DNA of 63,436 nt, filler included, from Kipferlia bialata (lineage: Eukaryota): assembly GCA_003568945.1 (NCBI GenBank). It is 5 parts of 5 records of this genome, joined end to end, with 100 filler letters (N's around TTAATTAATTAA, not from the genome) between each part and the next. Parts side by side here need not be neighbours in the genome. Positions count along the whole stretch, not along the records: positions 38,713 to 53,955 come from BDIP01000722.1; 4 more parts are not named here. One strand, given 5' to 3'. The notes under the pieces are model-generated. The model had not been told where the DNA came from and ran no database searches. It worked only from the letters and a program-made list of their open reading frames with translations. Made by a program: the position numbers and the translations under genes. This document shows positions 46,201 to 49,991 of this stretch, one piece after another (within the stretch, counting starts at the first letter, position 1; every line of letters begins with the position of its first letter).

Positions 46201-47387
46201 CATAACACTGGATGCGGCAGTGAGCATGCTGAACCAGGACCCTCACAACATATGGCCATATCTACAGGTAGGATGTATTATATATAGAGGTATAGTGGAT
46301 AGATAGATAGAGAGGGAGGTAGTACCAATCGAAACCAGGACCCGCACAACATATGGCCATACCTACAGGTGGGTGTATCTTCTTGTATGTATATATACGT
46401 ATCTACAGAGAGAGGAAGAGAGAAAGAGAGAACACACTTACCCCAGGGCAACCATGCCACCAAGGTGGTGAGTGTGTCTATATATACTAATTGTACATAT
46501 GAATATGTAGTCATCTGTCTATCTATCTATATGTATATGTATATGACCTTACCTCTCAGGGCAACCATGCCACCAAGGTTGTGACACCCAAGACAGTCAC
46601 CACACCCCTGAAGGTTTGTATATTCATAATAGTATAAACATTGAATACAGTATTTGTATTGTTTACAACACACTATAAATATGGTGGTGACACCCAAGAC
46701 AGTCACCACAACCCTCAAGGTTAGTAAATATGAATATATACATACATATATATACATACATATGTGTATACTAATTGTACTACTTGTTTCAGATTATTAG
46801 GTGGATGTGGGCCCCTACCCAAAGTACCCTGTCTACCTAGTAGTAGCTAGTAATTATTGTGTGCATATGTACACATTATCAGTAGTAGTTCTGCAAGGTA
46901 GCTCACTGCAGGTTGATGTGGGTCCATACCCCAAGTACCCTGTGTACCTGTTACCTATCCGTGCTAGCCGCGCTAGCAGGGTAGATGCAACACACACAGA
47001 AGGAGAGGCAGTGGGAGAGGGAGAGGGGGAGAGAGAGGGAGACTGGGTTGTGGAGGGTACCTTCACCCCTGCCAACGTGGCCATGCTGAAACTACACGGT
47101 GTGTATATGTTCATGAGTATTCCAAGTAATTCTGTTTCATACTATCTTTTATCTCTAACCCTCCAGGTCTCAGGGCCCTCATCCGCGGCTTTAGCTGTGT
47201 GTTATCTATTCATACTCTCCATATACGCTAACCCCCAGGCCTCAGGGCCCTCATCCGAGGCTTCAGCGAGTGGAGGTGCACCACCCACCCAGTCACTCAT
47301 CTGTTGACAGAGGAAGCAGTGGTGACACACTGTGTGCCTGAATACATGGCTTTACTAGGTATGGTGTTGCTTGGTAACAGTCTATAT

Positions 47388-47427
<40 letters not shown>

Positions 47428-47503
47428 TATATATATATATGTCTATGTATACTAATACCAGGTCACGCCAGTCGTACCCTCCCCCATGCCTTCAGGGTCC
47501 ATG

Positions 47504-47552
<49 letters not shown>

Positions 47553-47613
47553 CTCTTTCTCTCATATTGTAGGTCCCGCTAGTCGTACCCTCCCCCATGC
47601 CTTCAGAGTGCAT

Positions 47614-47664
<51 letters not shown>

Positions 47665-49991
47665 TCTCTTATACCAGGTCCCGCTAGTCGTACCCTCCCC
47701 CATGCCTTCAGAGTGCATGCCACCCTGATGGACACGGTACATGACAGGCTCAACCAGAGGTGTGTACTCTGCCACATGTATACTCTATGGTATACTGAAT
47801 ATACCCTTCTAGAGGCTCTCTTGTTACTTCGCGATCTGACCCCAGGATGTCACTCTCGAGTGCTACCATCTGCCGCATCACTGGCAGGGACACATACGAG
47901 GCAGTGCTAAAGAGCCTGGAGTCAACAGAGGTATGTGTCTATTTCTAATACCATGTAGTATATGTGTATTCTGCCATCATGTATACTAGTATAAACTACG
48001 CTACACCTACTCTGACCATGAGCCAATCTACCTTCCCAGGGAGATGTAAATTCAAGTGGATATGGAGTATATCTATCAATGTGTATATCTAACCCACAGG
48101 TAACGGACAATGAGCCCATCTACCTCCCCCCAAGTGCCGTGGAAGAGTGTCTGGACAGTGAACTGTTCACATCGGAGTGGGGTGAGTGCACATGTCTCTA
48201 TATATTGCCATTAGTGTATTTGTTTCGATCTAACCATAGACATGCACATACATATATACTAGATATAGACATGTCTATATATGTATCCAAGTCTAACCCT
48301 AGACATATACTATATACGTAAATGAATGTACAAGTGTATACAATATACAAATAGTGATCTAACCCTAGACATGCTGGAGGAGTACCAGCACTTCATATAG
48401 TATATATCTAGATGCACATACATATATACTACACATATGTATATATATGGATGTATACAGTCTAACCCTAGACATGCTGGAGGAGTACCAGCACATCATA
48501 TTCACCCGAGAATACTCTATACTCTCTCGCTATCTATATATATACCATGTACATTTACTATACATTTATATACATACAAATAGTGGTCTAACCCTAGACA
48601 TGCTAGAGGAGTACCAGCACTTCATCTTCACCCTACCCGAGAGTGCATACTACGGGGCGGCTGTCACTCATTTATCAGAGATCAAGGTAGCCTATCTATA
48701 TATACTCTCAGATATAGTTATGTATAGAGTATGTATTGTGTATTGTGTACATACTACTGAGAGTGCATACTACGGGGCAGCGGTGACACACCTATCAGAG
48801 ATTAAGGTACACGTTGACTCTCCTTTAGAGTAGTACGTTCCTAGTAGATTTATTACTCTCTCTCTTCTTTCTACTTTTGAATGTTCATCAAGTCTTACCC
48901 TAGGGCCAGATGCAGTCTGTCCTTGAGACATATATCCATATACATACATATGTATATATGTTCTCTCTCTATATATATACACACACACCCTCACTCATCC
49001 TAGGTCCAGATGCAGTCAGTGTATGAGACAGCCCGTGTCACCTCAGCAGACAGACACGCACAGCTTCTCACTGCGGCAGTGGTGGCAGCGGCAAGGAGAG
49101 CAAAGGCTCTTAAGGAGGTATTTCTACGCGATATGTATTCTACACGACCAGCTATTTTCTACACGATATGTGATATATATAAACTACGCGATACTGACCC
49201 CAGACTGTCTCTGTGGGCATCTACTCCCCCAAGCAGGGACTGGCAGTGCAGGCCATACTGGACAATGCCATAGCAGACGTGTTTGAGTGGGAGGTACATG
49301 GACATGCGACAATACATATATATGTATACTATATTATTATATTTAATACTATATATATATATGATATGTAGTCATAGCAGACGTGTTTGAGTGGGAGGTA
49401 CAATATACACTAATACTACTAATACAGTATACTCTACTTCTCCTCTGCCACATAGGACTCAGCTCTCTGTCTATATATAAATATTATTGAATATATAGAT
49501 ATACATTAATGTGTGTGATATGTAAGCCATTGCAGACGTGTTTGAGTGGGAGGTGAGTACTTATAGTACTGGATTCTCTCTCTCTCTCCCTCTTTACCAA
49601 TATACTTACTCTAGGGCTGTCTCCAGCACATTGAGGACTACTGCGAGGCCCTTCTCTCTGCCGGGTGCTACATACCCACCCAGACACACTGTGACATGGC
49701 CAGGCTGTCTAGATTCGTAAAGGGCCTCTTGGATGAGGTTATGGTACGTCACGAGAGTATAGATATAGTATGTATACACCACATACCATTCTGTTGACTA
49801 GTTTTGCCTATGTATGGTGAAGATTGCAGGTGTTGGACATACTTGACACTATATCTCACCCCCCCCAGGCCTTTGAGCAGCGTAGACTTGCCGGCCAGAA
49901 GGTCATGTGCCAACAGCTGAGGGGCCTGGCATTCTGGACCAGTAACCTGGCTAGGTAGATGATGTATACATAGTGTATGGATTATTATATA

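What the first reader, a model, noticed from the sequence alone, without database searches (positions are those of the whole stretch)
46801..48806. Intronic 'exon echoes' differ from the real exon only at synonymous sites
Seen: 46801-46839 (gtg gat gtg ggc ccc tac cca aag tac cct gtc tac cta) vs the real exon at 46912-46950 (gtt gat gtg ggt cca tac ccc aag tac cct gtg tac ctg) has 6 differences, all synonymous (VDVGPYPKYPVYL). The real exon end 48639-48686 vs its echo 48759-48806 has 7 differences, all synonymous (ESAYYGAAVTHLSEIK). The echoes are partial exons that cannot extend the reading frame as they stand. Established: a dead duplicate mutates at all codon positions, so non-synonymous differences should be at least as common. 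Inference: both copies were coding until recently. One model is that DNA from a strongly diverged allele integrates by homology inside the exon, with a microhomology/microsatellite junction at the other end, displacing the old exon edge into the intron. Introns would then archive past alleles and record cryptic genetic exchange. Alternatives are echo-exon gene conversion, repeat-guided DNA elimination, or haplotype stacking by the assembler.
Basis: partly seen in the sequence, partly recalled or inferred. Interest (0 to 1): 0.9.

Follow-up and report, generated by a model that had tools for sequence, protein, structure and literature searches.

The report
Introns archive other alleles' exon edges
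In a free-living relative of Giardia, many introns carry short copies of the neighbouring exon's edge that differ from it mostly at silent positions, so they are likely leftovers of other, strongly diverged alleles copied in during DNA repair, which would make introns a record of hidden genetic exchange.

Summary
Observation confirmed exactly, and it is general. The window matches the protist Kipferlia bialata. In 11 hand-built gene models, 60 of 139 introns hold partial copies of an adjacent exon edge: 108 hits in 278 exon-intron pairs, against 2 in 816 controls. Differences hit 107 of 473 fourfold sites but 59 of 1963 zero-fold sites, ratio 0.13; simulated dead duplicates give 0.51-0.56. Echo-versus-echo pairs are also silent-biased (0.23), so selection on the live exon alone cannot explain it. 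Echoes keep good splice sites, often on different intron sequence. A spliced contig uses the live exon and skips two echoes. The architecture matches avian 'exon stuttering' (PMC12954441); the silent signature, the frequency and the lineage appear new. Best reading: exon-edge-plus-splice-site units that evolved as working parts of diverged alleles, stacked by inter-allelic repair, with short-exon splice choice hiding them. Not shown: any donor allele, DNA depth, long reads, or which copy is the older. New variant of a known kind; interest 0.7.

The parts
46801..46839 (+). Echo of the 5' edge of the next exon (VDVGPYPKYPVYL), with its own AG at 46799-46800
   Evidence: no cover in the spliced contig
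46840..46911 (+). 72-nt spacer ending in the live acceptor; unlike the intron end before the echo (5 of 20 bases alike)
46912..47098 (+). Live exon, used in the spliced contig; joined upstream to exon 46560-46613 and downstream to 47239
   Evidence: 100% match to deposited protein P0002
47169..47195 (+). Echo of the 5' edge of exon 47239-47358, 2 silent differences, skipped by the GT..AG joint 47097->47238
48598..48686 (+). Live exon; two acceptor-side echoes (48369, 48472) upstream and one donor-side echo downstream
48759..48806 (+). Echo of the exon's 3' edge (ESAYYGAAVTHLSEIK), followed by its own GT on a different intron start
44906..44942 (+). Donor-side echo with 8 silent and 0 amino-acid differences in 12 codons
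43644..43698 (+). Donor-side echo, 6 silent differences including two Leu CTA/TTG codon switches
50050..50099 (+). Donor-side echo, same 16 residues, with a Ser AGT/TCC switch (three bases)
51495..51950 (+). Array of five donor-side echoes of exon 51330-51394, with at least four different intron starts; shorter and more diverged with distance
43287..53566 (+). Host gene, 31 exons modelled, 895 codons open, 38 echoes in 30 introns; hypothetical protein with no Pfam family
254..653 (+). XPG/FEN1-type gene: four acceptor-side echoes plus the live edge, with two kinds of intron end alternating and four silent variants among the five copies
7280..7833 (-). Array of four acceptor-side echoes in a 22-exon minus-strand gene (32 echoes in 21 introns)

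Best explanation
The echoes are exon-edge-plus-splice-site units that likely evolved as working parts of other, strongly diverged alleles of the same gene and were likely stacked next to the live exon by inter-allelic break repair or unequal exchange. Step 1 (inferred): alleles share the protein but differ at about a fifth of fourfold sites and have largely unlike introns, so exons are the only long homology. Step 2 (inferred): one end of a break pairs through that homology and copies across the other allele's splice site; the other end is joined by short or microsatellite homology, leaving two exon edges in tandem. Step 3 (shown for two echoes, otherwise assumed in the models): splicing takes the acceptor and donor that give the shortest exon, so the spare edge stays in the intron and is harmless; whole-exon copies are not seen. 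Step 4 (inferred): echoes decay and are lost quickly compared with the age of the alleles (at most about 0.03 changes per site of decay against 0.23 silent divergence), and new units tend to appear next to the live exon.
For: 0-fold 59/1963 vs 4-fold 107/473, ratio 0.133, p 4e-17 against a dead duplicate. The ratio is 0.166 with 4 nt trimmed at both ends, 0.11 without the broken end, and 0.133 in the 73 echoes with exact runs under 21 nt that cross no gap. Dead duplicates simulated through the same detector give 0.51-0.56. Echo vs echo: 35/779 vs 37/188, p 1.4e-9, 51 non-independent pairs. Echo fourfold GC is 0.62 vs 0.64 in live exons, with no significant drift to AT (67 vs 55) although introns of echo-rich genes are 37-40% GC. 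52 of 59 upstream echoes keep AG and 38 of 41 downstream keep GT. Echo acceptors score 4.5 bits vs 5.9 live and -8.6 for all intronic AG, and still 4.0 for the 22 whose flank is at most half alike. Ten echoes are identical over 24 nt or more yet have an unalignable flank. The spliced contig skips two echoes. The species' gene table lists four Dmc1 models, PolQ, Msh2 and Spo11, and no Rad51A or Ku70; Dmc1 stabilises mismatched heteroduplex (PMC6719624, abstract only).
Against: No donor allele was seen: one spliced contig only at 80% likeness (contigs drop variants), one deposited protein for the host gene, no other strain in two metagenome scans. A silent diversity near 0.2 would be at the top of what I recall for eukaryotes; no call gives that figure. 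The flank test is weak, because the control cut-off is raised by microsatellites, and 26 of 100 flanks do align. Only 31 of 98 broken ends touch a microsatellite. The 76 amino-acid differences are no more conservative than random (BLOSUM -0.51 vs -0.69, p 0.19), so they look like decay or alignment run-over, not allelic variants. The Cys-rich gene is weaker (pN/pS 0.36). No DNA contig was laid on the locus, so depth and single-molecule linkage are untested. The repair genes are shared with other fornicates, so they permit but do not explain the trait.
Confidence: 0.58

Rival explanations
1. Snapshot model: echoes arise as exact slippage copies of the gene's own edge; afterwards the live edge and its intron end are replaced by clean conversion from other alleles, or units swap between live and dead by expansion and collapse of the array. 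It also needs diverged alleles, but the exchange is separate from the duplication.
For: 23 of 108 echoes are identical to the exon and 26 of 100 have alignable flanks. At 34 of 138 variable site comparisons two echoes share a base that the live copy lacks. In the FEN1-type array flank type and exon variant are uncoupled. Farther echoes tend to be shorter (26 vs 8 pairs) and more diverged (26 vs 9).
Against: Needs two or more events per echo, and a clean swap of an unlike intron end has homology on one side only. Ten identical echoes have unalignable yet well-formed splice flanks.
Confidence: 0.2
2. Assembly artefact: haplotypes or strains in the culture were stacked in tandem by a short-read assembler.
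For: The published draft of this species is short-read, fragmented and diploid by k-mers (PMC5874029, methods and results read). SSRP1 is deposited twice on different contigs, 447 of 448 residues alike. Five echoes are separated from their exon by an N gap, three of them identical to it. No DNA contig was laid.
Against: 75 of 108 echoes share under 21 exact bases with the exon, and no 21-mer around the two named echoes repeats in the window. A junction from mid-exon into intron exists in no intact allele. 0.95 of sampled 31-mers of 44000-50700 are in a DNA run's contigs (possibly the source run, so not independent). Arrays hold four or more variants, more than a diploid carries. The echo variant was not seen in the spliced contig.
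Confidence: 0.07
3. The echoes are still functional: used in rare or stage-specific splicing, or as pointers for programmed DNA deletion that fuses echo and exon, so both stay under coding selection.
For: Echo splice sites remain strong. The 46801 echo is in frame and stop-free through to the exon. The deposited model P0002 includes one echo-like repeat as an exon near its start.
Against: Echoes are partial and hold one splice site; frame offsets are random (35 of 108 in frame); the spliced contig uses the live edges and the live exon's silent variants; decay rises with distance.
Confidence: 0.06
4. The donor is a paralog or homeolog (hybrid origin or old genome doubling, since resolved), not an allele of an interbreeding population.
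For: Divergence near 0.2 fits homeologs as well; two intron-end types alternate in the FEN1-type array.
Against: At least four flank types in one array; divergence ranges from 0 to 8 in 12 codons and is overdispersed (p 0.014); one deposited copy of the host gene.
Confidence: 0.06
5. Ordinary dead tandem duplicates; the silent excess comes from selection on the live exon alone plus detection bias.
Against: Simulated ratio 0.51-0.56 vs 0.13 observed; echo-echo pairs still at 0.23 where about 1 is expected; strong splice sites on unlike flanks.
Confidence: 0.03

Closest known systems
Avian 'exon stuttering' on chicken dot chromosomes (Hron et al. 2026, PMC12954441; abstract, part 1 of 2 of results section 7, and passages read)
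   Same: Partial copies of the adjacent exon edge with its donor or acceptor, in the neighbouring intron only, in imperfect tandems; coding region intact. Median 36 bp there, 30 nt here; over 90% within 1 base of the border there, 87 of 108 here. The authors offer inter-homolog non-crossover conversion as one speculation.
   Different: There 190 of 5,572 dot-chromosome introns, 1-44 copies, GC-rich vertebrate chromosomes, nanopore-verified and polymorphic. Here 60 of 139 modelled introns (different screen and thresholds), 1-5 copies, AT- and microsatellite-rich introns of a protist, intron parts often unlike each other. The word 'synonymous' does not occur in that paper's main text; its supplements were not read.
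Minisatellites whose first unit spans an exon-intron border (human F7 IVS7, CBS, LAMIN B2, PDGF; PMC1557585, passages read)
   Same: A repeated splice site in the intron that stays silent because the most upstream donor is chosen.
   Different: Single loci, near-identical units, only 4 exon bases in the F7 unit; here both donor and acceptor sides, 13-55 exon bases, divergent units, in most echo-rich genes' introns.
Inter-allelic conversion at human minisatellites (MS32, CEB1; via PMC2599865, passages read)
   Same: Non-reciprocal transfer of repeat units between alleles by synthesis-dependent strand annealing builds mosaic arrays.
   Different: Non-coding arrays with long homology; here the shared homology would be a coding exon and the unit count is low.

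Membership tests
Exon stuttering (PMC12954441) | Partial exon copies in the adjacent intron, anchored at the exon border | tested here: met
   100 of 108 within 6 nt and 87 within 1 nt of the border; upstream copies are 5' edges, downstream copies 3' edges; 0 whole-exon copies. Distal introns were not screened.
Exon stuttering (PMC12954441) | Copy includes the splice donor or acceptor | tested here: met
   52 of 59 AG, 38 of 41 GT
Exon stuttering (PMC12954441) | Repetitive introns with imperfect tandem clusters | tested here: met
   15 arrays of 2-5 copies; introns with echoes median 292 nt vs 86 nt without; copy numbers lower than in chicken
Exon stuttering (PMC12954441) | Extensive intron length variation between individuals | not testable with these tools
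   One sample only; no other strain found
Exon stuttering (PMC12954441) | Confirmed on long raw reads | not testable with these tools
   Only contigs are served for the two runs, and the DNA run laid none
Splice-junction minisatellite (F7 type) | Head-to-tail array of near-identical units including the intron part | tested here: not met
   74 of 100 flanks do not align above the control (weak test); most edges have a single echo
Splice-junction minisatellite (F7 type) | Pseudo-sites silent, authentic site used | tested here: met
Dead tandem duplicate (pseudo-exon) | 0-fold/4-fold ratio about 0.5 against the live exon and about 1 between dead copies | tested here: not met
   0.13 and 0.23
Tandem alternative (mutually exclusive) exons | Whole exon with both splice sites, used in mRNA | tested here: not met
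   0 of 108 whole-exon copies; two echoes not in the spliced contig
Inter-allelic templated duplication | Echo variants present as live alleles in the population | tested here: inconclusive
   No second allele or strain found

The most novel reading that the evidence does not exclude
Kipferlia repairs breaks from very diverged homologs using exons as the only homology, and each imperfect event files an edge of another allele into the intron. Its introns then grow unit by unit as an archive of alleles, so a single genome would reveal outcrossing, silent diversity near 0.2 and recombination hot genes, and the codon signature would give a general test of how exon stuttering arises.
Probability: 0.4. 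Interest if true: 0.88.

Novelty: new variant of a known kind. Interest (0 to 1): 0.7.

Why it matters
The mechanism of exon stuttering is open: the chicken paper only speculates. Codon-position statistics show that here the stuttered units diverged as working exon edges, which points to exchange between alleles rather than slippage on one molecule. The same test can be run at once on the 1,345 chicken copies. If right, it gives evidence of genetic exchange and very high diversity in a free-living fornicate, a source of intron growth (median 86 to 292 nt), and a sign that this reduced spliceosome picks the shortest exon among equally strong sites. It also warns annotators: gene finders take echoes for exons (my own model and, once, the deposited one did).

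Tried and rejected
No whole genome is held, so the census covers this window only. It covers 11 modelled genes; several other genes, distal introns and echoes before a partial gene's first exon were not screened. An automatic gene finder took echoes as exons, so models were curated by hand on a shortest-exon rule; two boundaries were later corrected to P0002, for only. DNA depth: no DNA contig was laid; this says nothing either way. Other strains: 0 matches; one 27% relative only. A second allele of the 22-exon minus-strand gene: nothing scored (weak search). Host protein identity: no Pfam family, no usable Atlas hit, profile search not run. Selection for in-frame echoes rejected. Conservative amino-acid changes not found. 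Flank identity vs exon identity not correlated (rho 0.16, p 0.11). Literature: 9 searches; 'exon stuttering' returned only the chicken work. In the species' genome paper, 'duplicat', 'heterozyg' and 'polymorph' have 0 hits. PMC6679479 (passages) and PMC12895298 (passages) said nothing on echoes. Subscription papers are not searched.

Full report
Observation. Both pairs are as described: 6 third-position differences in 39 nt, and 7 silent differences in 48 nt. The first echo follows its own AG and the second precedes its own GT. The peptide pattern occurs only at these two places in the window.

Organism and gene. An exon at 55.5 kb is 100% identical to a Kipferlia bialata SSRP1 protein, and the exon at 46912 to a hypothetical K. 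bialata protein, P0002. The window is several scaffolds joined by linkers. The published draft of this species is a short-read assembly at about 150x, judged diploid by k-mers (PMC5874029, parts 1-2 of 6 and passages read); I did not establish that the window comes from it. My 31-exon model is open for 895 codons and agrees with P0002 except at the start and end and at two boundaries. The protein has no Pfam family.

Census. I modelled 11 genes (150 exons, 139 introns) and aligned each exon without gaps to its two neighbouring introns. This gave 108 hits in 278 pairs, against 2 in 816 control pairs; 60 of 139 introns hold at least one. Of 61 upstream hits, 59 are 5' edges; of 47 downstream hits, 41 are 3' edges; 8 are internal. 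None is a whole exon. Median length is 30 nt and median offset 117 nt. Density is gene-specific: 0 in three genes with 59-76-nt introns, 1.3-1.5 per intron in four genes with 200-300-nt introns. Which copy is 'live' follows a shortest-exon rule that I assumed; it is confirmed by RNA for two echoes only.

Silent bias. Mismatches by codon position are 34/35/175. Zero-fold sites differ at 59 of 1963, fourfold at 107 of 473: ratio 0.133. A dead copy beside a live exon should give about 0.5; simulations through the same detector gave 0.51-0.56, and two coding copies gave 0.086. The result survives trimming, keeping one echo per edge (40/1420 vs 81/344) and dropping gap-crossing or long-identity echoes. 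Echo against echo, where two dead copies should give about 1, gives 0.23 (51 pairs, not independent). Echo fourfold GC is exon-like, and four multi-base silent codon switches occur, one a Ser AGT/TCC. Non-silent differences lean to the broken end (p 0.0008) and are not conservative, so part is decay or run-over. So most of the divergence built up while both copies were coding, and time spent dead is short. This is inference from the counts.

Intron flanks. Echo acceptors score nearly like live ones (4.5 vs 5.9 bits; all intronic AG -8.6); the echo beats its own live site in 20 of 52 cases, and echo donors are not weaker than live ones. Yet the flanking intron is often a different sequence: 74 of 100 do not align above a control, a weak test, and ten echoes identical over 24 nt or more have such flanks. 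A self-copy that decayed until unalignable should lose its branch site and its exon match. A well-formed but different intron end suggests a unit kept working elsewhere, most simply in another allele. Against a single rule, 26 of 100 flanks do align.

RNA and artefact. Run X2 (RNA by guess, but spliced) gives one 7769-nt contig that covers the live exon, skips 47098-47237 at GT..AG, continues into the upstream live exon, and leaves both echoes uncovered; no other letters were listed at 80% likeness. Contigs drop rare forms, and this is one sample. The DNA run X1 holds 0.95 of sampled words of 44000-50700 but laid no contig, so depth and linkage remain open. For the named echoes the longest exact runs are 11 and 20 nt and no 21-mer repeats within the window, which leaves an assembler little to confuse. 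Arrays hold four or more variants. A few identical copies beside N gaps may be artefacts.

Mechanism. See Best explanation. Shown: architecture, silent bias, intact echo splice sites, skipping of two echoes. Inferred: allelic origin, one-ended repair, quick turnover. Context from print: fornicates lack Rad51A and end-joining by Ku, and have duplicated Dmc1 (PMC8516963, passages); its supplementary table lists for this species four Dmc1 models, five Rad52 models, PolQ, Msh2 and Spo11. Dmc1 stabilises mismatched joints (PMC6719624, abstract). Microsatellite-like sequence abuts 31 of 98 broken ends against 15% background; in the FEN1-type array the exon's CTCTCT runs straight into (CT)n. Farther echoes are shorter and more diverged, which fits displacement of older edges, but the data cannot say whether an echo is the resident or the imported piece. 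The snapshot rival also needs diverged alleles; together the two readings take about 0.8.

Known systems. The architecture is that of avian exon stuttering (PMC12954441) and, on the donor side, of splice-junction minisatellites (PMC1557585). It works like exon stuttering and meets the three structural features I could test; population variation and long-read proof could not be tested. I found no report of it in a protist and no codon analysis of such copies in nine searches of the held library (listed under Tried and rejected); supplements of the chicken paper were not read. Earlier notes of this scan describe look-alikes in other genomes with much weaker bias; they are unchecked.

Verdict. 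Real, widespread in this window and not explained by dead duplication. New variant of a known kind. Interest 0.7, limited by the lack of a seen donor allele and of long reads.

Noticed in passing
window 54450-57001 (+): SSRP1 gene without echoes; the species has two deposited SSRP1 proteins on different contigs, 447 of 448 residues alike: separately assembled alleles or a recent duplicate.
   Followed up: partly
window 15297-15396, 23249-23348, 38613-38712, 53956-54055: Scaffolds are joined by 44 N, a 12-nt stop-in-all-frames linker and 44 N; neighbouring blocks are not linked in the genome.
   Followed up: yes
window 42777-43286 (+): A start that resembles a ribokinase N-terminus (recalled motif) lies before a 50-C run and is out of phase with the host gene's first modelled exon; the deposited model bridges it with doubtful exons, one an echo. 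Possible mis-join. The spliced contig has about 240 nt upstream of 43287 and 7769 nt in all, so the gene is far longer than the scaffold.
   Followed up: partly
window 3489-14855 (-): Echo-rich gene that looks like a DHH-family pyrophosphatase with extra domains (recalled motifs; two exons gave no Pfam hit). An echo at 10608-10579 differs by two residues next to the putative DHH motif.
   Followed up: partly
window, all modelled introns: Branch-point motif fused to the acceptor (YTNAC-N3-5-YAG), as described for diplomonads (PMC6679479); intron length is bimodal, about 60-100 nt without and about 300 nt with echoes.
   Followed up: partly
window 35890-36070, 36540-36900, 37990-38500: Further echo arrays in genes that I did not model.
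   Followed up: no
window 33600-35300 (-): An apparently intron-poor open region among intron-rich genes; not identified.
   Followed up: no
window 23349-24618, 25049-26988, 28138-33522, 39041-40309, 40600-42400, 57100-58900, 59900-63155: Genes resembling (from recall, untested) an acidic nuclear protein, an RNF213/NFX1-type zinc finger protein, a Tudor-SN-like nuclease, a phosphoribosyltransferase, a DUF1295 membrane protein, a nucleoside hydrolase and a Chl1/XPD-type helicase; few or no echoes in those modelled.
   Followed up: no
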